Origin: an uncultured Alphaproteobacteria bacterium
GTDB lineage: Bacteria; Pseudomonadota; Alphaproteobacteria; Methylaequorales; Methylaequoraceae
Assembly (NCBI GenBank): GCA_902536655.1
Contig: CACAYF010000001.1
Coordinates: forward strand, 39,627 to 103,626
Direction of reading: 5' to 3'
Length of the DNA stretch: 64,000 nucleotides
The position numbers were made by a program, and so were the translations under genes. The notes beneath the pieces were generated by a model, which searched no databases, had not been told where the DNA came from, and saw only the letters and a list, made by a program, of their open reading frames with translations. This document shows positions 4,411 through 53,251 of the stretch, one piece after another. Each line of letters opens with the position of its first letter. Within the stretch, counting starts at the first letter, position 1.

Positions 4411-4414
4411 ATTT

Positions 4415-7637: not shown

Positions 7638-7762
7638 TAAACTTTTTATTATATTATCAATTAAAATTATTAAAAATAAAATCTATAACTTTATGCTCCT
7701 AGAATCACATAAGTTTATAAAGAAAATTTATTTTATTATAATTTATACTTAATATTTCAAAT

Positions 7763-9397: not shown

Positions 9398-9412
9398 TGA
9401 AAGGTTTTTAAT

Positions 9413-11341: not shown

Positions 11342-11347
11342 CTCAGA

Positions 11348-12508: not shown

Positions 12509-12563
12509 TTAATATATTTTATTTAATTAAAAACTAAAAAAAATAGTATATTATAAAATCAAG

Positions 12564-13271
12564 ATGTCTACTCGATTATCAACTAAAGAACATTTTAATA
12601 AGATATTCAAAAATTCAAAAAAACCACATTCTAACTTTTTAATGAGTGGTAAAAAAATTGGTAAAAAAGATGAGGTTATCATCAATATAATAAAATCATT
12701 TAATATCAAAAATAAAAATTGTGTAGATATAGGTCCAGGTGATGGAAGATGGACTAGCTTTCTAAAAAATTTTAATCCATCAAATTTAATTGGCATTGAT
12801 TTTTCTGAGGAAGTTTTAAAAAAAAATAGACAAATTTGTGATCAAATATTATTAACAAATATTCAAAATGAGAAATTGGCACTAAAGTCTAACAATATTG
12901 ACCTAATTCTTTGTCTGGAGGTTTTAGAGCATTTAACTTTTCCAAATTTTTTTATTTCAGAATTAATGAGAGTTTTAAAACCTGGGTCAATTGCAATATT
13001 TACTATTCCTAATATTTTATCATTTATCTCAAGACTAAGAGTTTTGTTAGGATTGTTGCCAGTAGCAATAATTTCAGATCCTACACATGTAAAATTCTAT
13101 AGACGCAAAGAAATTATTAGACTTTTTTCAAAATTTAAAACTGAAATTAAGTTTTATTCGTCAACCTTTTCCTTGAATATTTTTAATCCAAAAAGTAAAT
13201 TCAACATAAAGTCTTTTGGTTTGTTATCTAACTTTGATGATAGTTTAATTTTTTCTATAAAAAAATTATAA
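12564..13271 (+). CDS. Class I SAM-dependent methyltransferase
   Basis: VDIGPGDGRW (motif I) and LILCLEVLEHL (motif II/post-I). Confidence 0.6.
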   Translation: MSTRLSTKEHFNKIFKNSKKPHSNFLMSGKKIGKKDEVIINIIKSFNIKNKNCVDIGPGDGRWTSFLKNFNPSNLIGIDFSEEVLKKNRQICDQILLTNIQNEKLALKSNNIDLILCLEVLEHLTFPNFFISELMRVLKPGSIAIFTIPNILSFISRLRVLLGLLPVAIISDPTHVKFYRRKEIIRLFSKFKTEIKFYSSTFSLNIFNPKSKFNIKSFGLLSNFDDSLIFSIKKL

Positions 13272-13713
13272 AATATGTAAAAAACTATTTCTTGGAGATA
13301 TCCTAACTAACATTGACAGAGCTAGTATGGCTTCAAGCCTTGAATTGAGATTACCTCTGCTGGATTACACACTTATTGAATTTTCATTTAAAAATTTAGA
13401 TTCAAACTATAAAATTTACGGTAATAAAGGTAAATACATTTTAGGACAAATTTTAAAAAACTATATTCCAAAAAATTTAATTAATAGACTAAAAATGGGT
13501 TTTGCTATACCTCTATCAAAGTGGTATAGAGGAAGATTGAAAAATTCGATGTTAGATACTTTAAACTTAAATAAATTTAAGAGTCAAAATATACTTAATT
13601 TTCAGCAATTTGGTAAAATGATTAAAAACTACATAATATCAAAAAGAAATTGTTACCATAAGTTATGAAATATTTTGATGTTTCAAATGTGGTTCGATAA
13701 ATGGATAAAATAA
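13261..13713 (+). pseudogene. Decayed C-terminal fragment of an asparagine-synthetase (asnB-like) gene, frameshifted
   Basis: Translation FLGDILTNIDRASMASSLELRLPLLD...KMGFAIPL parallels residues ~505-600 of the intact AsnB at 9413-11341 (LTGDILVKVDRASMSNSMEVRSPFLDRR...KMGFALPV). The very C-terminal MFQMWFDKWIK* (vs FIFQLWYEKWM*) is in a different frame at ~13678-13713. No N-terminal two-thirds. Confidence 0.6.
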
Positions 13714-13726
13714 TATTCCTGCTAAA

Positions 13727-14899
13727 CTAATTGATAATAAGATTTTCATATATAGTGGTATGATTTTTTACCATCGCCTTTAGACAAAATTTTGTCGAAT
13801 CCTTTTTTGATTCTAAAGATTTTCTTTTCAATAAATTTTTATTTGACAGTAAAGTTTTCATCGCCTTGACTAATTGACTTTTATTATTGCTTTCTATTAG
13901 AAAACCATTTCTATTATTTGTAATCTCAGAATTTCCTCCAACATTTGTTGCTATTGTTGTTATACCATGACTGATAAATTCTATAAGGCTATTAGACAGT
14001 CCTTCTTCAAATGAAGAACTAATTCCAGCATCTGTAATATCTAGAAATTTTTTAATATATTTTGTTTTGTTTTTAAAAATAAAATAACCCTCAATTTCCT
14101 TTTCTTGAATTAAATTTTTTAGATATTTCTTATATTCATCTTTTCCTGAGCCTAAAAAAATAACTATGAACGGAGTTTTAACAAATTTTCTAAGTTCATC
14201 AACAGCATCAATTACTAGCTTGTGGTTTTTATAAGGTATCAAATTAGCTAAAACTAAAAAAACAAAAGTATTTTTTTTTATACCCAAAACTTCTTTAAAT
14301 TTATCTCTTGATTCTTTCTGTTTGTCATTTGTATTTACAAAACCGTTATAAATAACCTTAATTTTGCACTTTGGGGCTCCTTCATCTATTAAATTTTTTC
14401 TTACTGCAATAGCATTTGCAATTATTAGTTTTATTTTATTGTGAAGAAATAATTCAATTTTCCTTAAAGGAAGGAATTTAAATTTATTCTGATAGTGATT
14501 TAAAGATCTTCTGCTCATTATAATATTTTGATGATTATTTAAAATACCAATAAGACCTCCCGTCAAATATGCTAAAAATAAAAAACAATGAATAATGTCA
14601 GGTCTAGTTTTTTTTATTCTGAAGTAATTTACTACGAAATTTAAAAAATGACTTAATATTGATTTAAATTTAAATTTGGGAAGAAAAACTCTTACAGAAC
14701 TATCTAAATCCTCAAATAAATCACCCTTTTCGTTCATAAGAAGATAAAGATCAATCTTAAATTCTTTTTTATCCATTGAATTAATAAGATTGAGAAGTTG
14801 TTTTTCCGTTCCACCTAAACCAAGTGAGCCAATAAAAAAAGATATATGAATTTTTTGGGAAGTATTTTTTTTAAATTTTTGCTCAGATTTAAGCATCAA
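13727..14899 (-). CDS. Glycosyltransferase family 1
   Basis: EGLSNSLIEFISHGITTIATNVGGNSEI GT1 motif; 390 aa. Confidence 0.65.
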   Translation of the reverse strand: MMLKSEQKFKKNTSQKIHISFFIGSLGLGGTEKQLLNLINSMDKKEFKIDLYLLMNEKGDLFEDLDSSVRVFLPKFKFKSILSHFLNFVVNYFRIKKTRPDIIHCFLFLAYLTGGLIGILNNHQNIIMSRRSLNHYQNKFKFLPLRKIELFLHNKIKLIIANAIAVRKNLIDEGAPKCKIKVIYNGFVNTNDKQKESRDKFKEVLGIKKNTFVFLVLANLIPYKNHKLVIDAVDELRKFVKTPFIVIFLGSGKDEYKKYLKNLIQEKEIEGYFIFKNKTKYIKKFLDITDAGISSSFEEGLSNSLIEFISHGITTIATNVGGNSEITNNRNGFLIESNNKSQLVKAMKTLLSNKNLLKRKSLESKKDSTKFCLKAMVKNHTTIYENLIIN

Positions 14900-15178
14900 T
14901 TTTACTCATAGTGAAAAGGGCTTTAAATATATTCAATACTTACACTACCAAATTATTTTTTAAAATGATACTTTTGTTTTTAAGCATTTAATTAAAAGTC
15001 AAAACTAAAATTTTCAATTCAAATATATAATGTTATAACATTAAGTATAATTTATTATTTAATTATTATTAATTTATTTTTCAGTTTAGGTAAATTTAAT
15101 TCATATCAATTGTTTGACATGTTTTAATTAAATTTGGTAATTATTAAGATCTTTATATTTGTAAAAAAAAGGAAAAAT

Positions 15179-16795
15179 ATGCAAAAGCTTAAGGTTGCGG
15201 TAATAGGTTGTGGACATTGGGGAAAAAACCTTATAAGGGACTTTGCAGATTTGGGCGTGCTAAAATATGTTTGTGATTCAGATCCATTAATAGCATATGA
15301 AATTGCAAAACGATACAATGTTGAGACTAAGTCTTTAAAAGATATTTTACTTGGAGATGTATGTGGTGTTGTTATAGCTGCGCCTGCCGAACATCACAGT
15401 AAAATAGTAAAATCCTCACTTGAAGCAAAAAAACACGTTTTTGTGGAAAAGCCTATTTCTTTAAATGTTTTAGAAGCTAAAGAGTTATGTGACTTGGCTA
15501 AACTTAATAGTAAAATTTTAATGGTTGGGCATTTATTGCAATATCATCCAGCTTTTTTAAAGCTTAAAGAACTTGTTGATAAAGGTAAACTTGGTAAACT
15601 TCAATATATTTATTCAAATCGTCTAAACTTAGGCAAATTTCGAAGTGAGGAAAATATTTTATGGAGTTTTGCACCACACGATATTTCTATGATTTTAAGT
15701 CTTATTGGGAGTACACCAGAAAAAGTTGTTGCTACTGGTGCCGCACATTTGAGTAAAAATATTCACGATGTAACAATAACTCATTTAACTTTTAAAAATG
15801 ATATACAAGCTCATGTGTATGTCTCGTGGTTACACCCATTTAAAGAACAAAAGTTAGTTGTTGTTGGTGAAAGAGGCATGGCTGTGTTTGATGATGGTTT
15901 AGATTGGTCGATGAAACTAAAACTGTATCCTCATGAAGTAAAATGGGTTAATGGCTCTCCAGAACCGCAAAAAGCAGAATTTGAAGCTTTAATTCTTGAA
16001 TCTAAAGAACCACTTAGGACAGAATGTGAACATTTTTTAGATTGTATTCAAAAGAATAAAAGACCAAGAACCGATGGAAGTGAAGGTTTAAACGTTTTAA
16101 AAGTACTTGATGCTTCTCAGAGGTCTTTGATAAGAGGAAATACAATATATTTAGAAAATAATAAAGAAGAAAAAAATCAATTTTATTCTCATGAAACCGC
16201 ATATATCGACAAAGGTTGTTATATTGGTAAAGGAACTAAAATCTGGCATTTTTCTCATATTCTCAAAGGAGTTTACATTGGTGAAAATTGTAATATTGGT
16301 CAGAATAATATGATTGGTCCTGATGTTGTTGTTGGCAATAATTGTAAAATACAAAATAATGTAAGCTTATATAAAGGCGTAAAATTAGATGATGGTGTAT
16401 TTTGCGGTCCTTCTTGTGTTTTTACTAACGTGCATAATCCTCGAGCTGAAATTGATCGCAAAAAAGAATTTCTTAAGACTCATGTAGAGAAAGGGGTAAC
16501 TATTGGGGCTAACGCTACAATTATCTGTGGAAACAAATTGGGAGCCTATAGCTTTGTAGGTGCAGGTGCAGTTGTAACTAAAAATGTTAAATCTCACGCA
16601 GTTGTGGCTGGTAATCCTGCCAAACAAATTGGGTGGATATCACATGCAGGAGAACTGCTTGATAAATCTTTTAGATGTCCTAAAGAAGGTCGTAAATATG
16701 CAATTGATAAAGCTGGGAATTTAAAAGAAATTGAAAAAAAAAAAGTTTTGAATAAGCAGCCTAAAAATAAAACTAAAAAAATTGCTAACTTATGA
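15179..16795 (+). CDS. Bifunctional Gfo/Idh/MocA oxidoreductase (WbpB-like) fused to hexapeptide-repeat N-acetyltransferase (WbpD-like)
   Basis: N-terminal KVAVIGCGHWG Rossmann motif. The C-terminal third has left-handed beta-helix hexapeptide repeats (IGENCNIGQNNMIGPDVVVGNNCKI...). Likely start is the ATG at 15179, preceded by AAGGA. Confidence 0.65.
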   Translation: MQKLKVAVIGCGHWGKNLIRDFADLGVLKYVCDSDPLIAYEIAKRYNVETKSLKDILLGDVCGVVIAAPAEHHSKIVKSSLEAKKHVFVEKPISLNVLEAKELCDLAKLNSKILMVGHLLQYHPAFLKLKELVDKGKLGKLQYIYSNRLNLGKFRSEENILWSFAPHDISMILSLIGSTPEKVVATGAAHLSKNIHDVTITHLTFKNDIQAHVYVSWLHPFKEQKLVVVGERGMAVFDDGLDWSMKLKLYPHEVKWVNGSPEPQKAEFEALILESKEPLRTECEHFLDCIQKNKRPRTDGSEGLNVLKVLDASQRSLIRGNTIYLENNKEEKNQFYSHETAYIDKGCYIGKGTKIWHFSHILKGVYIGENCNIGQNNMIGPDVVVGNNCKIQNNVSLYKGVKLDDGVFCGPSCVFTNVHNPRAEIDRKKEFLKTHVEKGVTIGANATIICGNKLGAYSFVGAGAVVTKNVKSHAVVAGNPAKQIGWISHAGELLDKSFRCPKEGRKYAIDKAGNLKEIEKKKVLNKQPKNKTKKIANL

Positions 16796-17838
16796 AAAAA
16801 CGTGTTGTAACAATTGTTGGTGCAAGACCACAATTTATTAAAGCTTCAACTTTATCTAGAGAGATTAAAAACCATGATGTTTTTGAAGAAATAGTTATTC
16901 ATACAGGTCAGCATTTTGATAAAAATATGTCTGATATTTTTTTTGATGAGCTTAAGATTTCAAAGCCAAAATATAATTTTGATATTAATAGTTGTTCTCA
17001 TGGGAAAATGACTGGTCAAATGCTTATAGCAATAGAGGAGGTTTTTTTAAATGAAAAACCAGACTTAGTTTTAGTTTATGGTGATACAAATTCGACTCTA
17101 GCAGGTGCGATTGCAGCATCTAAACTAAATATCCCATTAGCCCATGTGGAAGCAGGTCTAAGGTCTTTTAACAGGAAAGTGCCTGAAGAAATAAACAGAC
17201 TTTTAACAGATCATCTAAGTAAGTTTCTATTCTGTCCAACAAAGCAAGCACTGAAAAACTTAAAAATTGAAGGAATCACAAACGGAGTTCACCACACTGG
17301 AGATATAATGTACGACGCCACAATATTTGCAAAAGATTACATAAATAAAAATTTAAAAAAGCTAAATAATAAGTTTAAAATACGTAAAAATGAATTTGGA
17401 TTAATGACTATTCACAGACAAGAGTCAGTAAATAATAAAATACAATTTTCTAAATTGTTGGACTATGCAAACAAGTTTTCAAAAAAAAATAATATAAAAA
17501 TTTTATTTCCCGTTCATCCTAGAACAAAAGCTCTGATAAAAGAATATAAGTTAATGTCAAACTTTTCCTTTCTAGATCCTTTGAGTTATTTTGAGATTCA
17601 ATACCTTCTAAGTAATGCTTTTGTTGTTTTAACTGACTCTGGTAGTCTTCAAAAAGAAGCTTATTTCCATAAAGTACCATGTGTTACATTTCGCTCAGAA
17701 ACAGAGTGGGTGGAAACTGTTAAAAATGGTTGGAACAGATTATGGACTGAAAATCATTATGAGTCTCGACAAAAAATTTTTGATTATGGTGACGGAAATG
17801 GAGCAAAAAATATAATCAATATTTTGTTAGAAAATTAA
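16792..17838 (+). CDS. UDP-N-acetylglucosamine 2-epimerase, non-hydrolysing (WecB/WbpI-like)
   Basis: N-terminal VGARPQFIKAS and HTGQHFD...M motifs of the epimerase_2 family. Confidence 0.7.
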   Translation: MKKRVVTIVGARPQFIKASTLSREIKNHDVFEEIVIHTGQHFDKNMSDIFFDELKISKPKYNFDINSCSHGKMTGQMLIAIEEVFLNEKPDLVLVYGDTNSTLAGAIAASKLNIPLAHVEAGLRSFNRKVPEEINRLLTDHLSKFLFCPTKQALKNLKIEGITNGVHHTGDIMYDATIFAKDYINKNLKKLNNKFKIRKNEFGLMTIHRQESVNNKIQFSKLLDYANKFSKKNNIKILFPVHPRTKALIKEYKLMSNFSFLDPLSYFEIQYLLSNAFVVLTDSGSLQKEAYFHKVPCVTFRSETEWVETVKNGWNRLWTENHYESRQKIFDYGDGNGAKNIINILLEN

Positions 17839-17862
17839 AAAAGTAATTCTTTTTGTAAACTA

Positions 17863-19035
17863 TTAATAATTGGCTTTACGTAACTTTTCAATAATTTCGT
17901 AAAACTTTTCAATAATATACGAAGAATACTTAATGTTCATTGGTAAACTTAAAACTTTACCTGAAACTTCTTCACTCACTTTTAAGGAGATAGATTTTGG
18001 AAACTTTTTGTATGCTTTTTGGAGATGTAAAGGTTTCTGATAATAAATCATAGAGGGTATCCCCGATTCTTTTAATTTCTCAATTAGAATTGATCTAGAA
18101 ATTTCGTTAGGTAATTGAATTGTGTATTGGGCCCACGCTGATTTTGCTCCTAAAATAACATACGGTACTTGGACGATATTTTTTAGCATTTTATTATAGT
18201 AACTTGCTATTTTTTGCCTTTCTCTAAGTTCATCATCAAATATTTTTATTTTTTCTAATAATATTGCTGCTTGAATTGTATCTAATCTTGCATTTAATCC
18301 GATGCGAATGTTGTCGTATTTGTGATCACCTTTACCATGCAGTCGTATTGACTTTAGTACCTCTGCAAGTTCGTCATCATCAGTAAAAATAGCACCTCCA
18401 TCTCCATAACAACCAAGAGGTTTTGCAGGAAAAAAACTCGTTGCTGTTGCATAAGCTAGCTTACCAACTTTCTTTTTTAACAATTCAGCTCCATAACTTT
18501 GTGCAGCATCAGCGAGAATCCATAACTTATTTTCATCTGCTATTTTTTTAAGTATATTATAATCCGATGGTTGACCAAATAAATCGACAGCAATTATTGC
18601 CTTTGGTTTTAGTCTCCTTTTTTTTGCAATTTTGATACTTTTAATTAAACTTTCTGAATCAATATTATAGGTGTCAAAAAGAACATCCACGAAAACAGGT
18701 GTAGCTCCTAAGATTGCAACTACCTCTGGTGTTGCGGTGTAGGTAAAGCTGGGAAGAAAAACAGCGTCACCTGGACCAATATTTTTTGCCATTAAAACCA
18801 TCAATAGAGCATCTGTGCCACTTGAACATGATATAACATTTTTAACTTTAGAATATGCTGCTAATTTTTTCTCCAGTTCAAAAACTTCAGGACCCATAAT
18901 ATACTTTCCATGATCTAGAACTCGTTTTATAGCCATATCGATTTGACTTTTTATTTTATTTTGCTGTGATTTGAGGTCAAGAAAAGGGATTTTTTTTAAT
19001 AAATTTTTTTTTTTGGCTTTAAGTTTGACTGACAC
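17863..19035 (-). CDS. DegT/DnrJ/EryC1/StrS family sugar aminotransferase (WbpE-like)
   Basis: IPFLDLK N-terminus and PLP-lysine region typical of DegT. Confidence 0.75.
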   Translation of the reverse strand: MSVKLKAKKKNLLKKIPFLDLKSQQNKIKSQIDMAIKRVLDHGKYIMGPEVFELEKKLAAYSKVKNVISCSSGTDALLMVLMAKNIGPGDAVFLPSFTYTATPEVVAILGATPVFVDVLFDTYNIDSESLIKSIKIAKKRRLKPKAIIAVDLFGQPSDYNILKKIADENKLWILADAAQSYGAELLKKKVGKLAYATATSFFPAKPLGCYGDGGAIFTDDDELAEVLKSIRLHGKGDHKYDNIRIGLNARLDTIQAAILLEKIKIFDDELRERQKIASYYNKMLKNIVQVPYVILGAKSAWAQYTIQLPNEISRSILIEKLKESGIPSMIYYQKPLHLQKAYKKFPKSISLKVSEEVSGKVLSLPMNIKYSSYIIEKFYEIIEKLRKANY

Positions 19036-19494
19036 TGCGAATAATTTCTTTTGAATAATTAGTTATTTGTTATGTGGCATTTAAGAAATTAATAACAATA
19101 CTTATTTTATATTCAAGCTCTGTTTTTTTGATTTTAAATTCTTATTTTAATATATCATATAAGTTTTAATACATCTATAAATTAGTACTGATATAAAATT
19201 AAACACTATCATCATAAAACTTTAAACATCCATTTTAAATTTTCTTAAGTTAAACTTCTCTTCTATCTTTATTCAGAATTATAAAGAACAAATTAGGCTT
19301 TGAATCTTTTAAATTAATTTTTTTAATCAAACACTAATTGTTTTTGCTTAGTCTTATGTATGTTTTAACACAAAGATATTTAATGCTACTTTGTCTTATT
19401 GTAGTAGTAATAATAATAGAACTCATTAATTTATTGAAAAAAATGTGACAAAATAATCAATGTTTATATTATAATTATTAATAGGAAAAGTAAT

Positions 19495-19872
19495 ATGAAA
19501 ATTTTACAGGGTATTGATCTTTTAAAGAAAGAAAGGATTCAAAAAGTATACTTAAAGTTTGGAGATAAGTTTTTATCTAGAATTTTTTCATTTAAAGAAA
19601 TAGAGCAAATAAAAGATAACAATAAATATACCAATAAAATTGCTTCGAAATTTTCGGCTAAAGAAGCTACCTCTAAGGCGATTGGAACTGGTTTCTCCGA
19701 GGGAGTAAAATTTAAAGATATAGAAATACTCAATAAAGATAATGGTAAACCTTTTGTAAAACTTCATGGTAAAGCAAGCCTTAAAATTGATGAGATATTA
19801 TCGTCCAGCGTTTCAATAAGTGATGAGGATGATCTTGTAATTACAATTGTGACATTTATTGTTAAAAATTGA
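19495..19872 (+). CDS. acpS: Holo-[acyl-carrier-protein] synthase
   Basis: 125 aa; GIDLL..ERI, ASKFSAKEATSKAIGTG and KDIEILNKDNGKP match the AcpS family. Confidence 0.7.
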   Translation: MKILQGIDLLKKERIQKVYLKFGDKFLSRIFSFKEIEQIKDNNKYTNKIASKFSAKEATSKAIGTGFSEGVKFKDIEILNKDNGKPFVKLHGKASLKIDEILSSSVSISDEDDLVITIVTFIVKN

Positions 19873-20025
19873 GAATCAAAACTTGATAGGTTTATATATT
19901 TATCTTTCTAAAAATTTTTTCTAGAATTTAATTATAATTGTGACAAATTTCAAAATTATTTTGATTAATATTTTCTTTATTATTAAATTCTTTATCCACT
20001 TTATATTTTTTTTTTTTCTATTAAT

Positions 20026-21291
20026 ATGTTGATAACAATGGATGATTTTTCTCAAACATTTACAAAAGATTCTATCTTAAAAAAATTTCATGCTGTGAGA
20101 AAACAGTCATTAAAATTGATTAAACCACTTGAAGCTGAAGATATGGTTATTCAAACAGAAACTTTTGTAAGTCCAATTAAATGGCATTTAGGACATACTA
20201 CTTGGTTTTTTGAGAAATTCTTATTAATCCCTAATCTCAAAAATTATATATCGTTTGATGAATCTTTCGATTATATTTTCAATTCATACTACTTAGGTGT
20301 AGGTTCATTCAATGAAAAGTCAAAAAGGGGATTTCTAAATAGACCATTTTATCAAAGGGTACTTGAATATAGAAAGTATGTAGACTCTTATATGAACGAT
20401 TTATTAAATTTGAAATTATCTCAAGACTTAAACTTTAAAGTTGAATTAGGCATTAATCACGAGCAGCAACATCAAGAGCTTATTTTAATGGACATTAAAC
20501 ATATATTTTTTAGTAACCCATTAAAACCTAAGTTTTTAGAAACTAAAAAAAATCATAAAAAAAAGGAAGTTAGATATTCAAATGAATTTAAATGTAATGA
20601 AAATAAAAAATTTAAATTTGGGAATAATGCAGAAAATTTTTTTTATGATAATGAAAGCCCAAGTTCTTTTTGTTATTTGCAGCCTTTTAGACTTGATAAT
20701 TTTGTAACAAATAAAGATTGGAAGGAATTCATGAGTGAAGGTGGATATGAGAATTTTAAATATTGGCTTTCTGATGGATGGGACTTCATTCAGAAAAATA
20801 AAATTAGAAAACCAATGTATTGGGTTGATTCTAATAATTATTTTACTTTTTATGGTGTAAAAAAAATTTTAGACCAATTACCAGTTTCAAATATTAGTTA
20901 TTATGAAGCTCAAGCTTTCGCAAACTATAAAAAAAAAAGACTGCCAACAGAATTCGAGATGGAATTTGTTTTGAGTAGTTCTAAAAAAAATGGAAATTTT
21001 CTTGAACAAGCGAATTTTGAAGAGATTAATTATAACACAGAGCTTTTTAATATGTCATTTTATGGTAATCTTTGGGTCTGGACATCCAGTTATTACGTAC
21101 CCTATAAAAATTACAAACCTTTTAAAAATAATCTATCAGAATATAATTCAAAATTTATGTGCAATCAATTAGTACTCAAGGGTGGCTCATTTGCATCACC
21201 CAAGAGCCATATAAGACCCTCTTATCGAAATTTTTATTATCCTCAAGATAGATGGCAGTTTTCTGGTTTAAGGTTGGCAGAGGATATTTAA
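20026..21291 (+). CDS. egtB: Ergothioneine biosynthesis sulfoxide synthase EgtB (DinB_2 + FGE-sulfatase domains)
   Basis: WHLGHTTWFFEKFLL and NHEQQHQELIL (DinB His triad); C-terminal KGGSFASPKSHIRPSYRNFYYPQDRWQFSGLRLAEDI FGE domain. At 421 aa it is not the longer OvoA. Confidence 0.7.
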   Translation: MLITMDDFSQTFTKDSILKKFHAVRKQSLKLIKPLEAEDMVIQTETFVSPIKWHLGHTTWFFEKFLLIPNLKNYISFDESFDYIFNSYYLGVGSFNEKSKRGFLNRPFYQRVLEYRKYVDSYMNDLLNLKLSQDLNFKVELGINHEQQHQELILMDIKHIFFSNPLKPKFLETKKNHKKKEVRYSNEFKCNENKKFKFGNNAENFFYDNESPSSFCYLQPFRLDNFVTNKDWKEFMSEGGYENFKYWLSDGWDFIQKNKIRKPMYWVDSNNYFTFYGVKKILDQLPVSNISYYEAQAFANYKKKRLPTEFEMEFVLSSSKKNGNFLEQANFEEINYNTELFNMSFYGNLWVWTSSYYVPYKNYKPFKNNLSEYNSKFMCNQLVLKGGSFASPKSHIRPSYRNFYYPQDRWQFSGLRLAEDI

Positions 21292-22259
21292 TGAATAATT
21301 TAGACTTTCTAAATTTTTTTGATTCTATTGAGGATCACTCTCTGACAGTGTTAAAGGGTTTAGATTCAAAACCTCAAAAAAAAATTAATTCCAAATATTT
21401 TTATGACAAAAAAGGATCAATATTATTCGATAAAATTACAAAACTAGCTGACTATTATCCCTCAAAAATTGAATGTGAAATTTTAGAAAAAAATAGGGAT
21501 AATATAAGAAAAATGTTACCTTCAAATTCTGTTATTATAGAATTTGGAAGTGGCTCAAACCGGAAAATAAAAAAATTACTGAATGCTATTGATAAACCAA
21601 TCGAATATATTCCAATTGACATAAGCAAAGAGTTTTTATTTAAAAATGCTAAAGACTCAGCAAAAGATTTTCCAAATCTAAAAATTAAAGCAATTTGTGC
21701 AGATTTTAATCAGATAGATGTACTACAAAGAATTATAGGAAAAAAAAAATCGAAAATTGGTTTCTTTCCTGGCTCTACAGTGGGAAATTATAGTCCAGAG
21801 GACGCAAAAAAATTATTAATTAACTTTTCAAGAATTCTTGGAGATGAAAGTCATCTTGTAATTGGTGTTGATTTAAAAAAGGATATAGAAGTTTTAGAAA
21901 AAGCATATAATGACTCTAAAGGAATAACCGCTGAATTTAATAAAAATATTCTTAATGGTGTGAATAAAATATGTGGCACCATATTTGATTCAAAACTTTT
22001 TTATCATAAAGCCTTCTTTAATAAAAAAAAGAGTAGGATAGAAATGCATTTAGTGAGTAAAAAAAAACAAATAGTTGAAATATTAAATACAAAAATTCAT
22101 TTTAAAGAAGGAGAAACTATTCATACTGAAAATTCTTATAAATATACCTTAAGTAGTTTTCAGAATTTAGCGGAGTTGTCAAATTTTCAAATCATAGATG
22201 TCCTAAAAGATAAGAGATCCTTTTTTGGTGTATTCATTTTGAAAGTAAAAAGTATTTGA
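21291..22259 (+). CDS. egtD: L-histidine N-alpha-methyltransferase EgtD
   Basis: EFGSGSNRKIKKLLNAI...YIPIDIS matches the EgtD ELGSGSS...YVPVDVS signature. The start overlaps the egtB stop (TAATG). Confidence 0.65.
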   Translation: MNNLDFLNFFDSIEDHSLTVLKGLDSKPQKKINSKYFYDKKGSILFDKITKLADYYPSKIECEILEKNRDNIRKMLPSNSVIIEFGSGSNRKIKKLLNAIDKPIEYIPIDISKEFLFKNAKDSAKDFPNLKIKAICADFNQIDVLQRIIGKKKSKIGFFPGSTVGNYSPEDAKKLLINFSRILGDESHLVIGVDLKKDIEVLEKAYNDSKGITAEFNKNILNGVNKICGTIFDSKLFYHKAFFNKKKSRIEMHLVSKKKQIVEILNTKIHFKEGETIHTENSYKYTLSSFQNLAELSNFQIIDVLKDKRSFFGVFILKVKSI

Positions 22260-23392
22260 AATATATTAATTTTAATAACGCAGGATCTAGCAAGCCACTC
22301 AACATTGTTAATGAAGAAATAAATAGTTTTTTAGAAATTGAGAATAATTATGGCGGATATTATGCAGTTGTTAAATTTAAAAATAAGTTAAATTGCTTTT
22401 ACAATAATCTTTCGAAATTAATAAATTGTAAACAAAAAGAAATATCTTTTTTAACAAGTACGACGCTGGCATGGAATTTATTTTTTAATTCACTGCAAAT
22501 AAAAAAGAATCAAAATATTCTTATTTTTGAAAATGAATACGGAAGTAATCTTATTTATTACAAAAATAAAAGACACAATTTAAAAATTGTCAATATTAAA
22601 AAAAATGGAAAAGTTTGTTTTGAAGACTTAAAAAAGAAAATTAATAAATATACCAAAGTAGTTTCTTTGTGTCATGTTGCAACGCATTGTGGAAATAAAA
22701 TTGAAGCTGAAAAGATTTGCAATTATGTAAAAGAGCTTTTTCCAGAAGTTATATGCGTACTTGATGCATGTCAATCTATTGGACAGGTAGAAGTTGATGT
22801 AAAGAAAATTAATTGTGATGTTCTTGTTGGTTCTGGAAGAAAATATCTAAGGGGTCCTCGAGGTACAGGGTTTATTTACATCAATGAAAAAATAAGAAAT
22901 AAAATTAGTCCCATGATTTTGGATATGAAAAATTCTGAAATAATTGGTGATAAAATAAAAATCAAAAAATCTCATATTTTTGAGAATTATGAATTCTCAC
23001 CCTCTCTGCAAGTTGGATTAAGTAAAGCTCTCGAAAAAGTTAATGAATATGGAATATATAACATTGAACAAAATATTATTAAGAAAAGTAAATATTTCAG
23101 AAAGAAACTTGAAAATTTTAATCAAATTACATTCTTTGAAAATTTGAATACGCTGACTGGGATTAATACATTAAAGATAAAAGGTTTGAGTTCATTAAAA
23201 ATTTACACATACTTACTTTCAAAAGGAATTCTTTGTTCTATATCAAAATATTCATCAAGTTTACTTTATTTTAATAAGCTTACAGTGAATGATTTAATTA
23301 GAATATCTATACATCAATATAATACATATGACGATATAAACTATTTAGTTAAATGTTTAATTGACTTAATTACAAAAAAAGCAATTATATAA
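22256..23392 (+). CDS. egtE: PLP-dependent class V aminotransferase / C-S lyase (EgtE-like)
   Basis: GSGRKYLRGPRGTGFIYI PLP-lysine region; ATGA overlap with egtD. Confidence 0.55.
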   Translation: MKYINFNNAGSSKPLNIVNEEINSFLEIENNYGGYYAVVKFKNKLNCFYNNLSKLINCKQKEISFLTSTTLAWNLFFNSLQIKKNQNILIFENEYGSNLIYYKNKRHNLKIVNIKKNGKVCFEDLKKKINKYTKVVSLCHVATHCGNKIEAEKICNYVKELFPEVICVLDACQSIGQVEVDVKKINCDVLVGSGRKYLRGPRGTGFIYINEKIRNKISPMILDMKNSEIIGDKIKIKKSHIFENYEFSPSLQVGLSKALEKVNEYGIYNIEQNIIKKSKYFRKKLENFNQITFFENLNTLTGINTLKIKGLSSLKIYTYLLSKGILCSISKYSSSLLYFNKLTVNDLIRISIHQYNTYDDINYLVKCLIDLITKKAII

Positions 23393-23394
23393 AT

Positions 23395-23778
23395 ATGAAT
23401 GTAGAGAAATTTATAAGATTAATACAAGTAACTTCTGTACTTTTAATTCTTGTTGGTGCCGTAGTTGGTTTCATTAGTGAAATCAATCTGATGATTGAAA
23501 AAATGAAAGTCGAGCTTGCAGATCTCTTACTTCTTTTTATTTATGTTGAGGTAATGGGAATGATAAGGGTATATCTTCTTAATGAAGAAATACGAATCAC
23601 ATACCCTCTGATAATTGCAATAACGGCTATTTCAAGACTAATAATACTGCAAAAAAAGGATCTCGATCCATCTATACTTATTTATGAATCTTTAGCAATA
23701 CTCATAATTGCCATTGCAATTATTGTATTGAGATTGAGATATTTGACATTTCTTAAGCCAAAAAGAAATTATAAATAA
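23395..23778 (+). CDS. small polytopic membrane protein (127 aa), hypothetical
   Basis: Four hydrophobic segments; lies immediately after egtE. Confidence 0.3.
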   Translation: MNVEKFIRLIQVTSVLLILVGAVVGFISEINLMIEKMKVELADLLLLFIYVEVMGMIRVYLLNEEIRITYPLIIAITAISRLIILQKKDLDPSILIYESLAILIIAIAIIVLRLRYLTFLKPKRNYK

Positions 23779-23788
23779 ATATTAAATC

Positions 23789-24505
23789 TTGATGCATTCA
23801 AAATTTATTCAAAAACTTTTTTTTTACAACAACTGTACCTTTATTTTGTTTGTACTACTCTTTCTATTTTATCCAAGTTTGGATATTTATTTTTCTAGTC
23901 TTTTTTTTAATGAAAATCAGTTTCTTTCTGAAAAATATACGTTTATAAAAGTTTTAAGGGTTTATTTAAAAAACCTTATGATAATTATTCCAGTAATTTC
24001 TCTTCTAATCCTGTTCATAGACTATATTAACAAAAAACAGAATATGAGAAGATTAATAAATCAAAGAACTAAGTTCTCATTAATAGGTTTAATTGTTGGC
24101 CCAATTTTGGGTTGTGGGATAATCGCCAACTTATATTTCAAAGATACTTGGGGAAGGGCTAGACCAGTTCATGTAGAGGAATTTGGTGGAAACAAAATCT
24201 TTACTCCTGCTTTTTTAAAGTCTGATCAGTGTGAAAAAAATTGTTCTTGGATCAGTGGAGAAACGTCTGCAGCATTCTCATTAACAGTTGGCACAATACT
24301 ACTTAAAAATCCTATTTTTTTTCTAATGAATTTAATTCTGGGTTTTTTAGTTTTCTTTTGTAGACTTTCCATGGGAGGACACTTTTTCAGTGACAATATT
24401 TTCGCTATGATTTTTATGATCTATTTAGCGATATTTTACAAAAATATAATTTATCTACATTTGAGAAAAAAATTATTTTATGAAAAAAGTTTTAATAATA
24501 ACTGA
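23789..24505 (+). CDS. PAP2-family membrane phosphatase (candidate lipid A / undecaprenyl-PP phosphatase)
   Basis: KDTWGRARP (K-x6-RP) and RLSMGGHFFSD (R-x5-H-x3-D) PAP2 motifs. Confidence 0.55.
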   Translation: MMHSKFIQKLFFYNNCTFILFVLLFLFYPSLDIYFSSLFFNENQFLSEKYTFIKVLRVYLKNLMIIIPVISLLILFIDYINKKQNMRRLINQRTKFSLIGLIVGPILGCGIIANLYFKDTWGRARPVHVEEFGGNKIFTPAFLKSDQCEKNCSWISGETSAAFSLTVGTILLKNPIFFLMNLILGFLVFFCRLSMGGHFFSDNIFAMIFMIYLAIFYKNIIYLHLRKKLFYEKSFNNN

Positions 24506-25418
24506 TGAAAAAAAAAGTAGTTATAATCAATGTGATGCTCTTTTATATTATTTAAAAAAAAAAGTTAAAATAAAAACAGAGCATTTAAAAATTGAAAGAG
24601 AATTAACTCACACTTTACCCAATTTTGTTATTTATACATATTTGTATATAAAATCATTTTTTAAAAAAAAAAATAAGAATCAAATTGCAGATTTTATTAT
24701 CTCCTGTGGAAGAATAAGTGCTCCATATAGTTTAATACTAAAAAAATTTAACAAAGAATGTAAAGTCTTTCATATATTAGATCCTTATTTTCTAAGAAAT
24801 CGCTTTGATAAAATATTAATTCCATCTCACGACTTTCAAAAGTTTTATAAACGCAACAATGTGCTAGAGTTTGTGGGAACCTTTGTTGTTAAAAGAAAAT
24901 TACCCAATAATTATGTAAAAAATTTTAAGGAAATTGAATCAATAAAAAATATAATAGCTTGCTTTGTAGGTGGAGATGGTAAGAGTTCTAAAATCTTAAT
25001 TTCGGAAATAAATGATCTTGTTGACAAAATAAATCTAATTGGTGATGGATACAGGGTTGTATATTGTTTTTCAAGAAGAACAAGTAAAATAACAAAAAAA
25101 ATTATCTGTAAAAGAAAAAAAGACGATCATTATTGTTATGATTATAAAGACAAAAATCCATATTGGTACTTGATAAATAAATCATCACATTTTATTGTTA
25201 CAGAGGATTCTGTTAGTATGATATCAGATGCTGCTTTTACAGGAAAACCTGTTTACGTAGCTAGGATAAATAATATAAAAGATAAAATAAAAGATTTTGT
25301 AAAGAATTTAGAAGAAAAAGGTGTCGTAAAATTTTTTGACGGTGAAATTCGAAGTTGGAAATATAAAAAAATAAATGAGTCAAAGAGAATCGCAGATCAT
25401 CTTATCAAAATAATTTAA
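24480..25418 (+). CDS. hypothetical protein (ELM1/DUF1022-like?)
   Basis: 312 aa, no firm motif. Confidence 0.2.
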   Translation: MKKVLIITDEKKSSYNQCDALLYYLKKKVKIKTEHLKIERELTHTLPNFVIYTYLYIKSFFKKKNKNQIADFIISCGRISAPYSLILKKFNKECKVFHILDPYFLRNRFDKILIPSHDFQKFYKRNNVLEFVGTFVVKRKLPNNYVKNFKEIESIKNIIACFVGGDGKSSKILISEINDLVDKINLIGDGYRVVYCFSRRTSKITKKIICKRKKDDHYCYDYKDKNPYWYLINKSSHFIVTEDSVSMISDAAFTGKPVYVARINNIKDKIKDFVKNLEEKGVVKFFDGEIRSWKYKKINESKRIADHLIKII

Positions 25419-26275
25419 TTGTTCCATCTATTATGAAACCAAATCCACTGTTCTGGTTTTTGTTTTATCCATATTTCAACATATTTATTCAAATGATTCA
25501 TAATTTCTTTTTCATTACCAATTTGTTTAAGTTCATCAGGAGAAATTGGTTTCGCATAAGAAATTTTGAAATTTGTAGCATTTTCTCTAAAACATACTGC
25601 AGGTATTATGGGACAATCATATTTTAAAGCAAATTTGGCAATTGCAGACGGAGATTTAACAGATTGTCCAAAAAATTTTGTAGAAATACCGTCATTCATT
25701 TTTTGATCTATAAGCATTCCAATATGTCCACCTTTACTTCTCATTATTTTGAGGCACTGTTTAGCTCCATCAGCACCTTTTCTAATTAAACCAACTCCAT
25801 AACCTAAGCGTATCTTTCTGAGAATTTTATCAACTAAATGATTATTTGGAGCTCTGTATATAAAATTTATTTTAAAGCCTTTTTGGGTAAGTAGATGAGA
25901 AGTTAATTCCCAGTTACCGATATGTGCAGAAAAAAATAAACAATTAGAGTATTTTTTCATTGGACCAATTAAGTTTTCCTCATTCTCAACAATTATATTA
26001 TTTTTTTTTCCAAGTTTAATTTTATTAAGATTTGGATATTCGCCAACAACTCTTCCAAAATGAAACCACATCCTACTAATTATAGTGTTAAGTTCTTGTG
26101 AACTTATTTTCGGGAAAACTCTCATAATATTTTTTTTTACAACTAAATTTCTCTTTGAAAAAAAACCATATAAAGAAAAAATCACTCCTCCAGTTAATGA
26201 TGATAGTCTAAGCCCGAGTAGTTTAAATAATAAAAAAAAGAAAATTACTATTATATATTCTAAAATATTTCTCAA
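25415..26275 (-). CDS. Lipid A biosynthesis lauroyl/myristoyl acyltransferase (LpxL/HtrB family)
   Basis: N-terminal TM, HIGNWEL (H-x4-E/D acyltransferase motif), 286 aa. Confidence 0.6.
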   Translation of the reverse strand: MRNILEYIIVIFFFLLFKLLGLRLSSLTGGVIFSLYGFFSKRNLVVKKNIMRVFPKISSQELNTIISRMWFHFGRVVGEYPNLNKIKLGKKNNIIVENEENLIGPMKKYSNCLFFSAHIGNWELTSHLLTQKGFKINFIYRAPNNHLVDKILRKIRLGYGVGLIRKGADGAKQCLKIMRSKGGHIGMLIDQKMNDGISTKFFGQSVKSPSAIAKFALKYDCPIIPAVCFRENATNFKISYAKPISPDELKQIGNEKEIMNHLNKYVEIWIKQKPEQWIWFHNRWNN

Positions 26276-26291
26276 AAAACTCCCAAAAATC

Positions 26292-27026
26292 CTAATTTAT
26301 TACTATTATTGATGGAGGCAAAATATTATTTTGATTAATTGTTTTTTCAACTTCATACAAAGAAGATTGGAAAACTCTTTCTGAATTCATTGAAGCGTTT
26401 GAAACTATAAAAACTTTTGTTTTACGATCAACACCCATTTCAATTAAATCAGATGAAATTTTTTTTATTTGACTTACCCCCATATATATAATTATTCTAC
26501 CCTCGTTACCTACGATTTTCTTTAGATCCAGTGAAATAGAGCGATTATTAATTCTTCTATGACCAGTGATAAAGTTACAAACACCGTTTTGATTGAAAAA
26601 AGAAATGTTCGTTTTGTTGATTGCTGGTTGTGATGATGTAATTCCAGAAAAAATTTTATATTTTATCTGTTTTTTTTTAAGAAATTCTATTTCTTGACTT
26701 CCCCTGCTAAAAAAACTAGGGTCACCGCCCTTAAGTCTTAAAACTTTATTGTTTTTTTTGGCATGATCTACCATCCATTCATTTATTTCACTTTGAGAAC
26801 ATGCTCTTTTATTTTTTGTTTTACCTCCAAATATCTTTATTGCAGTTTTTTTTGTATTCTTTAAAAGTTCTTCATTTACTAAAGAGTCATATATAATAAC
26901 ATCTGCCTGTTTTATAGCTACATAAACTTTTAATGTTACTTGCTTTAAACAACCAGGTCCAGCGCCAGCAAGAATAACTGATCCTTTTTCAAAAACTAAA
27001 TTACTGGGTTTATAATTAATCTCCAT
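26292..27026 (-). CDS. Uroporphyrinogen-III C-methyltransferase (CobA/CysG methylase domain)
   Basis: VILAGAGPGC, YDSLV and GGDPSFFSRG tetrapyrrole-methylase motifs. The start is probably the internal Met (MEINYK), which avoids overlap with the divergent ABC gene. Confidence 0.6.
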   Translation of the reverse strand: MEINYKPSNLVFEKGSVILAGAGPGCLKQVTLKVYVAIKQADVIIYDSLVNEELLKNTKKTAIKIFGGKTKNKRACSQSEINEWMVDHAKKNNKVLRLKGGDPSFFSRGSQEIEFLKKKQIKYKIFSGITSSQPAINKTNISFFNQNGVCNFITGHRRINNRSISLDLKKIVGNEGRIIIYMGVSQIKKISSDLIEMGVDRKTKVFIVSNASMNSERVFQSSLYEVEKTINQNNILPPSIIVIN

Positions 27027-44720: not shown

Positions 44721-44730
44721 AGTTTGAATC

Positions 44731-50529: not shown

Positions 50530-50543
50530 TAAATTATATCCTT

Positions 50544-51625: not shown

Positions 51626-51651
51626 TACCGATTACTCCTAAAACACTAAAT

Positions 51652-52711: not shown

Positions 52712-52744
52712 TTTCCCCTCTTGATTAGTTTATACAAGAGAGAT

Positions 52745-52759: not shown

Positions 52760-52838
52760 AAACAATAGTATTCGCTTTAAGTAACTGATTTAATTGATGA
52801 ATTATTGATTGAAAAAGAAGATGTCAATTTGCTGACAA

Positions 52839-53240: not shown

Positions 53241-53251
53241 AATTTTTCTCC

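What the first reader, a model, noticed from the sequence alone, without database searches (positions are those of the whole stretch)
20026..23778. Compact egtB-egtD-egtE ergothioneine operon without egtA/egtC, plus a co-transcribed small membrane protein
Seen in sequence: EgtB (DinB_2 His-triad plus FGE domain, 421 aa), EgtD (ELGSGS-like plus YIPIDIS) and a class V PLP enzyme (EgtE-like) are chained by TAATG/ATGA overlaps. A 127-aa four-TM protein starts 3 nt after egtE.

Established knowledge: EgtA and EgtC are needed only for the gamma-glutamyl-cysteine route. Their absence here implies either a type II EgtB that uses cysteine directly, or that they lie elsewhere in the genome.

Inference: ergothioneine synthesis, for protection against redox or UV stress, in a streamlined AT-rich marine bacterium. 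The coupled membrane protein is a candidate exporter or anchor and is uncharacterised.
Basis: partly seen in the sequence, partly recalled or inferred. Interest (0 to 1): 0.55.

Follow-up and report, generated by a model that had tools for sequence, protein, structure and literature searches.

The report
Three-gene cysteine-route ergothioneine cluster
An AT-rich marine alphaproteobacterium carries a compact three-gene set that should make the antioxidant ergothioneine directly from histidine and cysteine; this is a known pathway type, and the small membrane protein next to it is a conserved neighbour, not part of the pathway.

Summary
Four tightly packed + strand genes lie at 20026-23778.

- **EgtB (421 aa):** passes the NCBIfam EgtB model. 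It is clearly type II: 336 bits to Chloracidobacterium EgtB against 94 bits to the mycobacterial type I enzyme. It keeps the three iron-binding histidines and the Tyr-Tyr pair. It should therefore use cysteine directly, so egtA and egtC are not needed.
- **EgtD (322 aa):** passes its model and keeps all nine histidine-pocket residues that I checked.
- **The third gene:** a class V PLP enzyme, but not a canonical EgtE (105 bits against a cutoff of 400). It has a SufS-like fold but lacks the desulfurase cysteine. In 78 of 79 related loci it sits directly after egtD. A 30%-identical homologue lies two genes downstream of OvoA in a Flavobacteriaceae MAG. It is probably the C-S lyase, from a separate clade.
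- **The 127-aa protein:** belongs to the PsiE family (PF06146). It stays with the downstream PAP2/Elm1-like/LpxL-like genes in 15 loci with no egt gene detected upstream. At least eight egtB-egtD-PLP loci lack it. The exporter/anchor idea is not supported.

Verdict: a new member of a known pathway type, of modest interest.

The parts
20026..21291 (+). egtB: type II (cysteine-using) hercynine sulfoxide synthase, 421 aa
   Evidence: TIGR03440 scores 459.9 bits against a cutoff of 360; DinB_2 and FGE-sulfatase domains are present. PDB: CthEgtB 336 bits (41% identity) against MthEgtB 94.5 bits. H57/H145/H149 align with Cth H62/H153/H157, and Y88/Y89 with Cth Y93/Y94. The type I catalytic Tyr loop aligns with N368/L370.
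21291..22259 (+). egtD: L-histidine N-alpha-methyltransferase, 322 aa. Its start overlaps the egtB stop (TAATG).
   Evidence: TIGR03438 scores 348.5 bits against a cutoff of 290.9; PF10017 scores 323.5 bits. The best PDB hit is M. smegmatis EgtD (4pim, 141 bits). Y39, F47, Y56, N166, Y206, T213, M252, E282 and S284 are all conserved.
22256..23392 (+). Class V PLP enzyme, 378 aa, TTG start overlapping the egtD stop (TTGA). Inferred hercynylcysteine sulfoxide C-S lyase, from a SufS-like clade without the catalytic cysteine.
   Evidence: PF00266 scores 168.8 bits. Both the EgtE model (105.5 against 400) and the SufS model (142.9 against 475) fail their cutoffs. AF2 pLDDT is 87; SufS structures match at TM 0.83-0.86. 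D170/Q173/R195-K196/R349 are invariant, and the SufS Cys position holds Ser333/334 with no Cys in the clade. The gene lies directly downstream of egtD in 78 of 79 loci. A homologue lies in an OvoA cluster.
23395..23778 (+). psiE-family four-TM membrane protein, 127 aa. Adjacent to the egt genes but probably not part of the pathway.
   Evidence: PF06146 scores 62.3 bits against a cutoff of 23.9. Four hydrophobic segments. It is 96-99% identical in relatives whose egtD/PLP products are 84-91% identical. It is present with no egt gene detected upstream in 15 loci and absent from at least 8 egt loci.
23789..26275 (.). Context block that travels with psiE: PAP2 phosphatase (23789-24505 +, weakly LpxF-like), Elm1-like PF06258 protein (24480-25418 +) and a lipid A acyltransferase-family gene (25415-26275 -).
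   Evidence: Scores: PAP2 56.2 bits, LpxF model 103.8 against a cutoff of 400, PF06258 179 bits, PF03279 151.7 bits. PAP2 lies within 300 nt of psiE in 48 of 51 loci.
19873..20025 (+). A 153-nt AT-rich spacer between acpS and egtB. It is the only sizeable gap on this strand, so it is the likeliest place for a promoter.
   Evidence: Sequence read. The promoter scan is uninformative in this AT-rich DNA (55 sites against 53.6 expected) and no terminator-like sites were found between 19000 and 26500. No Rfam element. The promoter placement is inferred only.

Best explanation
The locus encodes a three-step, oxygen-dependent ergothioneine pathway that uses free cysteine.

1. EgtD trimethylates the alpha-amino group of L-histidine with three SAM to give hercynine.
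2. The type II EgtB is a non-heme iron enzyme with a 3-His site and a Tyr-Tyr acid pair. It couples hercynine and L-cysteine with O2 to give hercynylcysteine sulfoxide. No gamma-glutamylcysteine ligase (EgtA) or amidohydrolase (EgtC) is needed.
3. The downstream class V PLP enzyme cleaves the C-S bond by beta-elimination, giving pyruvate, ammonia and, after reduction of the sulfenic acid, ergothioneine.

That third enzyme is a separate SufS-like clade that has lost the persulfide-forming cysteine. It is not an orthologue of mycobacterial EgtE.

The family assignments of EgtB and EgtD are shown. Their chemistry is inferred from characterised relatives. The lyase role of the PLP enzyme is inferred from residues and gene context.

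The psiE-family gene that follows belongs to a conserved envelope-related block (PAP2, Elm1-like, LpxL-like). The egt cassette happens to abut that block, at the edge of a variable surface-glycan island.
For: **EgtB**
- Passes the equivalog model.
- Scores 336 bits against CthEgtB and 94 bits against MthEgtB.
- The His triad and Tyr93/94 equivalents are present. PMC10903977 states that Tyr93/Tyr94 are essential in CthEgtB.
- The type I Tyr377 loop is not conserved.
- PMC11993508 and PMC13209761 state that type II EgtB uses cysteine and that only EgtB, EgtD and EgtE are then required.

**EgtD**
- Passes the equivalog model, and all nine pocket residues I checked are conserved.

**PLP enzyme**
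- Every homologue of at least about 44% identity with enough upstream sequence follows egtD directly: 78 of 79 loci, and the one exception has a 1.8-kb insertion.
- This includes loci with a completely different wider context (L004, L021, L022 and others).
- A 30% homologue lies in an OvoA cluster that needs the same chemistry.
- The PLP lysine, the Asp-x-x-Gln motif and the carboxylate arginine are kept. The SufS cysteine is replaced by serine across the clade. SGHK has become SGRK, matching the R202-K203 pair of MsEgtE (PMC10805701).

**psiE independence**
-.
Against: - No biochemical or metabolite data exist for this lineage.
- The PLP enzyme fails the EgtE model (105.5 against 400) and scores higher against SufS.
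- I could not display a residue-by-residue alignment with MsEgtE, so the Tyr48/Tyr106 equivalents are unverified.
- One relative (L149) has egtB and egtD but no PLP gene, so the lyase may be dispensable or replaceable.
- Cysteine rather than gamma-glutamylcysteine preference is inferred from similarity to one characterised enzyme at 41% identity.
- egtA and egtC could not be searched for genome-wide. Only this window was checked, and not all of its smaller ORFs were scanned.
- Most supporting loci come from one related group of marine alphaproteobacteria, so the adjacency counts are not phylogenetically independent.
Confidence: 0.78

Rival explanations
1. The PLP enzyme is a general cysteine/cystine or sulfur-mobilising enzyme with no specific role in the pathway. 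The sulfoxide is cleaved by unrelated housekeeping lyases, as happens when egt genes are expressed in hosts that lack EgtE.
For: It fails the EgtE model and scores best against SufS-type desulfurases in sequence and fold. L149 has egtB and egtD without it. In Methylobacterium the presumed egtE is unlinked to egtBD (PMC4621440). PMC11993508 notes ergothioneine formation in yeast without an Egt2/EgtE gene.
Against: It follows egtD directly in 78 of 79 loci, including unrelated genomic contexts. The desulfurase cysteine is absent from the whole clade. A homologue is clustered with OvoA. Start/stop overlap with egtD.
Confidence: 0.12
2. The PsiE-family protein is functionally coupled to ergothioneine, as an exporter, anchor or sensor.
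For: A 2-nt gap after the PLP gene and no predicted terminator. It lies directly after the PLP gene in 47 of 66 informative metagenome loci.
Against: It is present, with its PAP2/Elm1-like/LpxL-like partners, in 15 loci with no egt gene detected upstream. At least 8 egtB-egtD-PLP loci lack it. Insertions of about 1.4 kb separate it from the PLP gene in L031, L091 and L144, yet it stays next to PAP2. A protein of 127 aa with four TM segments is small for a transporter. No paper in the library links PsiE to ergothioneine. The only 'fusion' found (P0120) is an indel-ridden gene call.
Confidence: 0.08
3. The pathway runs through gamma-glutamylcysteine as in mycobacteria, with egtA and egtC encoded elsewhere in the genome.
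For: The whole genome could not be searched. Glutamine amidotransferase domains exist in the window, but in AsnB-like proteins and a class I GATase, not in an EgtC-type protein.
Against: EgtB is 3.5-fold closer in bit score to the cysteine-using CthEgtB. It has the type II Tyr-Tyr pair and lacks the type I Tyr. No EgtA- or EgtC-type domain was found in any scanned ORF of the 64-kb window.
Confidence: 0.05
4. The cluster makes a different thio- or seleno-histidine, such as ovothiol or selenoneine.
For: The EgtB protein gives sub-threshold hits to SenA (267.7 bits) and OvoA (92.3 bits).
Against: Both hits are below their cutoffs (420 and 400), while the EgtB model is passed. No senB/senC or OvoA C-terminal methyltransferase is present. 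The adjacent EgtD makes hercynine, the ergothioneine precursor.
Confidence: 0.03

Closest known systems
Type II EgtB pathway (Chloracidobacterium thermophilum EgtB; Methylobacterium EgtB/EgtD plus EgtE)
   Same: Same three-enzyme logic with cysteine as the sulfur donor. EgtB is 41% identical to CthEgtB, with the same iron ligands and Tyr93/Tyr94 pair. egtB and egtD lie in tandem, as in Methylobacterium (PMC4621440, PMC11993508).
   Different: Here the C-S lyase candidate is physically fused into the cluster by start/stop overlap. In Methylobacterium the presumed egtE is at a distant locus. The lyase candidate also belongs to a different class V clade from mycobacterial EgtE.
Mycobacterial egtABCDE cluster
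   Same: EgtD and the overall product. An oxygen-dependent sulfoxide synthase followed by a PLP lyase.
   Different: No egtA or egtC. EgtB is type II rather than type I (94.5 bits to MthEgtB). The PLP enzyme scores only 105.5 bits on the EgtE model (cutoff 400) and 43 bits to MsEgtE 8iry.
SufS / type II cysteine desulfurases
   Same: Best sequence and fold matches for the PLP enzyme (79 bits; TM 0.83-0.86). The PLP lysine, Asp-x-x-Gln motif and substrate arginine are conserved.
   Different: The catalytic persulfide cysteine is replaced by serine in the whole clade. His-Lys has become Arg-Lys, and the E-H-H motif has become N-E-Y. The score is below the SufS subfamily cutoff (142.9 against 475.1).
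Fungal Egt1/Egt2 pathway
   Same: Cysteine is used directly, and a cysteine-desulfurase-like class V PLP enzyme acts as the C-S lyase (PMC4020840, PMC10805701).
   Different: In fungi, Egt1 fuses the methyltransferase and the sulfoxide synthase; here they are separate genes. NcEgt2 (5uts) matches only a 69-aa fragment, at 20 bits.
E. coli PsiE (phosphate-starvation-inducible protein E)
   Same: Pfam family PF06146, similar size and four hydrophobic segments.
   Different: The scores of 16-24 bits on the enterobacterial PsiE equivalog models are far below their cutoffs of 138-222. The function is unknown in both. Here the gene is linked to PAP2 and lipid A acyltransferase-family genes.

Membership tests
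EgtB sulfoxide synthase, type II (CthEgtB-like) | Passes the curated EgtB equivalog model and has the DinB_2 + FGE-sulfatase architecture | tested here: met
   TIGR03440 scores 459.9 bits against a cutoff of 360. PF12867 scores 25.2 and PF03781 96.5 bits.
EgtB sulfoxide synthase, type II (CthEgtB-like) | 3-His facial triad for iron | tested here: met
   H57, H145 and H149 align with Cth H62, H153 and H157 (8qf6 numbering) in the phmmer alignment. The identification of these three as the Cth ligands is from my memory of the structure papers. PMC13645936 confirms a conserved 3-His triad.
EgtB sulfoxide synthase, type II (CthEgtB-like) | Tyr93/Tyr94 catalytic pair instead of the type I Tyr377 | tested here: met
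   N86-S-Y88-Y89 aligns with Cth N-S-Y93-Y94 (PMC10903977). Both tyrosines in the MthEgtB loop around residue 377 align with N368 and L370. The chain-numbering offset is uncertain by a few residues.
EgtB sulfoxide synthase, type II (CthEgtB-like) | Uses L-cysteine, not gamma-glutamylcysteine | not testable with these tools
   Inferred from 336 bits to CthEgtB against 94.5 bits to MthEgtB. An enzyme assay is needed.
EgtD histidine N-alpha-methyltransferase | Passes the curated model and keeps the histidine-pocket residues | tested here: met
   TIGR03438 scores 348.5 bits against a cutoff of 290.9. Y39, F47, Y56, N166, Y206, T213, M252, E282 and S284 of MsEgtD are all identical in the alignment. 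The residue list is from my memory of Vit et al. 2015; the numbering was checked against the chain.
EgtE (mycobacterial hercynylcysteine sulfoxide lyase, TIGR04343) | Passes the curated equivalog model | tested here: not met
   105.5 bits against a cutoff of 400. MsEgtE 8iry scores 43 bits, below SufS at 79 bits.
EgtE (mycobacterial hercynylcysteine sulfoxide lyase, TIGR04343) | Active-site residues named for MsEgtE (Tyr48, Tyr106, Asp180, Gln183, Arg202-Lys203, Arg348) | tested here: inconclusive
   D170-x-x-Q173, R195-K196 and R349 are invariant in the clade and have matching spacing (PMC10805701). No direct alignment with MsEgtE could be displayed, so the Tyr48/Tyr106 equivalents (possibly Y35/Y95) are unverified.
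EgtE (mycobacterial hercynylcysteine sulfoxide lyase, TIGR04343) | Clustered with egtD/egtB | tested here: met
   Directly downstream of egtD in 78 of 79 loci.
SufS-type cysteine desulfurase | Catalytic persulfide-forming cysteine in the C-terminal loop, and a passing score on the SufS model | tested here: not met
   The cysteine position aligns with Ser333/Ser334, and there is no Cys there in any of 12 clade members. TIGR01979 scores 142.9 bits against a cutoff of 475.1. Only the fold matches.
PsiE family (PF06146) | Passes the Pfam gathering score; about 130 aa with four TM segments | tested here: met
   62.3 bits against a cutoff of 23.9. Four hydrophobic segments. The enterobacterial PsiE equivalog models are not met (24 bits against 145).
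   psiE has no egt gene detected upstream in 15 of 66 informative loci. egtB-egtD-PLP occurs without psiE in at least 8 loci. psiE keeps PAP2 as its neighbour in 48 of 51 loci.
OvoA / SenA (other thio/seleno-histidine synthases) | Passes the curated model | tested here: not met
   OvoA N-terminal model scores 92.3 bits against a cutoff of 400. SenA scores 267.7 against 420.

The most novel reading that the evidence does not exclude
The cysteine-less, SufS-like PLP enzyme represents a third, independently recruited lineage of thiohistidine-sulfoxide C-S lyases, beside mycobacterial EgtE and fungal Egt2. It would serve type II EgtB in abundant streamlined marine alphaproteobacteria and also OvoA in some Flavobacteriaceae. 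If so, these plankton are an unrecognised oceanic source of ergothioneine.
Probability: 0.5. Interest if true: 0.45.

Novelty: new member of a known kind. Interest (0 to 1): 0.3.

Why it matters
The pathway type is already described: a type II EgtB that needs only EgtB, EgtD and a lyase. Standard annotation models already call egtB and egtD here, so the chemistry holds no surprise.

Three points have modest value.

1. The cluster is common in a very abundant group of streamlined marine alphaproteobacteria. It is present in 50 of 66 informative metagenome loci found through psiE. I found no paper in the library linking ergothioneine to SAR11 or Pelagibacter. These cells may therefore be an overlooked source of ergothioneine in seawater, and a sink for reduced sulfur.
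2. The lyase candidate defines a compact natural egtB-egtD-lyase cassette from a distinct PLP clade. That could be useful for pathway engineering.
3. The analysis removes a tempting but unsupported link between PsiE and ergothioneine.

Tried and rejected
- **Direct alignment with MsEgtE.** I searched the PDB with the 69-aa active-site fragment. EgtE ranked only about 20th, so no alignment was printed.
- **Foldseek against the PDB.** It confirmed the SufS-like fold but did not separate lyase from desulfurase.
- **Promoter/terminator scan.** It found 55 promoter-like sites against 53.6 expected and no terminators, so it is uninformative in this AT-rich DNA.
- **Rfam.** No riboswitch or other RNA family in the window.
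- **Source genome.** Exact look-ups of the window's EgtB and EgtD found no record. The 100%-identical PsiE led only to short Tara scaffolds. The organism could not be named, and egtA/egtC could not be searched for genome-wide.
- **P0120.** I considered this 336-aa protein with PsiE and Aminotran_5 domains as evidence for a functional fusion and rejected it. It has a truncated N-terminus, a frameshifted junction and an internal deletion, all typical of assembly indels.
- **Distant PLP homologues.** Those at 23-31% identity in Gammaproteobacteria, Acidimicrobiales and Saprospiraceae have no egt or ovo neighbours. They say nothing about function.
- **Literature.** Searches for ergothioneine with SAR11, Pelagibacter or PsiE returned nothing relevant.

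Full report
**Observation**

I read the junctions directly.
- egtB/egtD is TAATG, as reported.
- egtD/PLP is TTGA rather than ATGA, so the PLP gene starts at TTG.
- The 127-aa ORF begins 2 nt after the PLP stop.
- The same close packing continues. A PAP2 gene follows after 10-13 nt and an Elm1-like gene overlaps it by 26 nt.
- The only real gap on this strand is the 153-nt spacer between acpS and egtB.
- No terminator-like site lies in 19000-26500. The promoter scan is at background level, 55 sites against 53.6 expected. There are no Rfam elements.

**EgtB**

- It passes the curated EgtB model (TIGR03440, 459.9 bits against a cutoff of 360). It fails the SenA model (267.7 against 420) and the OvoA model (92.3 against 400).
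- Against solved structures, the cysteine-using Chloracidobacterium enzyme scores 336 bits (41% identity). The gamma-glutamylcysteine-using mycobacterial enzyme scores 94.5 bits.
- H57, H145 and H149 align with Cth H62, H153 and H157. Y88 and Y89 align with Tyr93 and Tyr94, the pair described as essential in CthEgtB and as the counterpart of type I Tyr377 (PMC10903977).
- In the alignment with MthEgtB, the tyrosines of the loop around residue 377 face N368 and L370.
- Reviews state that type II EgtB uses cysteine and that the pathway then needs only EgtB, EgtD and EgtE (PMC11993508, PMC13209761).
- The missing egtA and egtC are therefore explained by the enzyme type. No EgtA- or EgtC-type domain appears in any ORF of the window that I scanned. 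The rest of the genome could not be searched.

**EgtD**

It passes TIGR03438 (348.5 bits against 290.9). Its best solved relative is M. smegmatis EgtD (141 bits). Y39, F47, Y56, N166, Y206, T213, M252, E282 and S284 are all identical. The residue list is from my memory of the EgtD structure papers, and I checked the numbering against the chain.

**The PLP enzyme**

- *Family:* it is a class V fold enzyme (PF00266, 168.8 bits) but fails the EgtE equivalog model (105.5 against 400). It scores slightly better on the SufS subfamily model (142.9 against 475.1), so it fails that as well.
- *Solved structures:* SufS-type desulfurases lead (79 bits). MsEgtE reaches 43 bits.
- *Model:* an AlphaFold model built on 12 homologues (pLDDT 87) superposes on SufS structures at TM 0.83-0.86.
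- *Residues against a desulfurase:* the persulfide-forming cysteine of SufS/Nfs2 aligns with Ser333/Ser334, and no clade member has a cysteine there.
- *Residues for a lyase:* the lysine motif is SGRK rather than SGHK, the Arg-Lys pair reported for MsEgtE (R202-K203; PMC10805701). The SufS E-H-H motif is N-E-Y. D170, Q173, K196 and R349 are invariant.
The cysteine conclusion also rests on the tool alignments.

**Gene context of the PLP enzyme**

- A scan of one genome per species with the clade alignment found 54 loci.
- Taking those together with the psiE-derived loci, every homologue of at least about 44% identity with enough upstream sequence follows egtD directly. That is 78 of 79 loci, and the exception, L091, carries a 1.8-kb insertion. 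A few loci are the same contig fetched twice.
- This holds in loci whose wider neighbourhood is unrelated to the window (L004/L005, L021, L022, L024, L026, L028, L032, L035).
- In a Flavobacteriaceae MAG (L042), a 30%-identical homologue lies two genes after a full-length OvoA (TIGR04344 654 bits, TIGR04345 281 bits). The ovothiol pathway needs the same sulfoxide C-S cleavage.
- More distant homologues in Gammaproteobacteria, Acidimicrobiales and Saprospiraceae have no such neighbours.
- One relative, L149, has egtB, a glycosyltransferase, egtD and psiE but no PLP gene. The lyase may therefore be replaceable.
- I conclude that this enzyme is probably the pathway's C-S lyase. It works like EgtE or Egt2 but is not a member of the EgtE family.

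**The 127-aa protein**

- It is a PsiE-family protein (PF06146, 62.3 bits against 23.9) with four hydrophobic segments.
- It is strikingly conserved: 96-99% identical in relatives whose EgtD and PLP proteins are 84-91% identical.
- A metagenome scan seeded with psiE returned 80 loci. Of these, 66 had a called psiE ORF and either a PLP gene or enough upstream sequence to exclude one.

| Arrangement upstream of psiE | Loci (of 66) |
|---|---|
| PLP gene directly upstream | 47 |
| PLP gene upstream, separated by a 0.5-1.4 kb insertion | 3 |
| No egt gene detected | 15 |
| egtB and egtD present, no PLP gene | 1 |

- PAP2 lies within 300 nt downstream of psiE in 48 of 51 loci, usually followed by the Elm1-like gene and the LpxL-like gene on the opposite strand.
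- Where an insertion separates psiE from the PLP gene (L031, L091, L144), psiE stays with PAP2.
- At least eight egtB-egtD-PLP loci with several kb of downstream sequence have no psiE.
- The single PLP-PsiE 'fusion' protein in the database is an indel-ridden gene call.
- The association is therefore lineage synteny, not functional coupling. Co-transcription remains possible, but if it occurs it would also take in PAP2 and the Elm1-like gene.

**Setting**

- Upstream of egtB, from 2.8 to 19 kb, lies a surface-glycan island. It holds GT4 glycosyltransferases, AsnB-like amidotransferases, a methyltransferase, a WbpB/D-like fusion, UDP-GlcNAc 2-epimerase and a DegT aminotransferase.
- DNA identity to close relatives L008 and L012 is about 85% from psiE back to about 21200. 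It falls to 50-70% upstream of about 21000. Their EgtB is only 55-56% identical although EgtD and the PLP enzyme are 84-89% identical. Only the last 40 or so residues of EgtB stay at 92-95%.
- A single-cell genome, AG-359-F09 (L006), is about 92% identical throughout.
- The egt cassette thus sits on the boundary of a variable region. In relatives with no egt genes detected, glycan genes abut psiE instead.

**Taxonomy**

Relatives are labelled Alphaproteobacteria, Rickettsiales or Pelagibacteraceae. Closed contigs of 1.48-1.58 Mb carry the cluster. The window also encodes a flagellar apparatus, which classical SAR11 lacks. I therefore do not call the organism SAR11.

**Verdict**

The PLP enzyme needs relabelling as a distinct lyase candidate, and the membrane-protein inference is not supported. 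This is a new member of a known pathway type. Interest is modest. It rests on the abundance of the carriers, for which I found no published link to ergothioneine, and on the separate PLP clade.

Noticed in passing
window 40934-63236: A flagellar regulon in a 25-30% GC streamlined genome. Genes: RpoN (40934-42394, -), MotA/MotB (43947-45915), FlhB, FliR, FliP, FliM, FliL, FliK-like, FliI, FliH, FliG and FliF (49378-61679, -), and a sigma-54 activator (62052-63236, -). Relatives are labelled Pelagibacteraceae or Rickettsiales, yet classical SAR11 is non-motile. The window's exact FliG sequence occurs on 225 contigs of up to 1.77 Mb. Two AEGEAN-169/HIMB59 papers do not mention flagella. The taxon is unresolved.
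   Followed up: partly
window ~21000-21200 (3' end of egtB): A sharp step in divergence. DNA identity to relatives L008 and L012 is about 85% downstream and 50-70% upstream. Their EgtB is 55-56% identical, while EgtD and the PLP enzyme are 84-89% identical. This looks like a recombination or variable-island boundary inside egtB, with divergent egtB alleles kept in close relatives.
   Followed up: partly
window 2800-19035: A surface-polysaccharide island: a sulfatase-domain protein, three GT4 glycosyltransferases, two AsnB-like proteins, a PhyH-like dioxygenase, a methyltransferase, a GFO/IDH/MocA-hexapeptide fusion, UDP-GlcNAc 2-epimerase and a DegT aminotransferase. It is replaced by other glycan genes in relatives.
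   Followed up: partly
window 23395-23778 and loci L001-L149: The PsiE-family protein is unusually conserved: 96-99% identical where neighbouring proteins are 84-91%, and still 71-75% where the PLP enzyme is 48%. Residues 41-99 are nearly invariant. It almost always precedes PAP2, Elm1-like and LpxL-like genes, which hints at an envelope or lipid A role.
   Followed up: partly
L042:4044-8128: A Flavobacteriaceae MAG carries a full-length OvoA, then a 276-aa protein with no Pfam or NCBIfam match, then a class V PLP enzyme 30% identical to the window's. This may be an ovothiol cluster that uses this PLP clade in place of the known OvoB-type lyase.
   Followed up: partly
L149:2619-6384; L131:1-4867; L031:7001-9961; L091; L144: Mosaic variants of the cluster. 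A GT4 glycosyltransferase sits between egtB and egtD in L131 and L149. L149 lacks the PLP gene altogether. A 443-472 aa membrane protein with no Pfam match sits between the PLP gene and psiE in L031, L091 and L144.
   Followed up: partly
P0120 (database protein, 336 aa): An apparent PLP-PsiE fusion. It has a truncated N-terminus, a frameshifted junction and an internal deletion, so it is probably an artefact of a long-read assembly.
   Followed up: yes
window 30942-33971 (+) and 46841-47440 (-): A 1009-aa ORF has only a weak PEP carboxylase match (63.8 bits over residues 115-612). A 199-aa ORF has only a weak ribosome-recycling-factor match (46 bits). Both are unusually divergent for these families.
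   Followed up: no
window 21252-21290: An alternative upstream ATG would give a 335-aa EgtD that overlaps egtB by 40 nt. Public gene calls are split between the 322-aa and 335-aa versions. The Pfam domain starts at residue 19 of the short form, so the TAATG start looks sufficient.
   Followed up: partly
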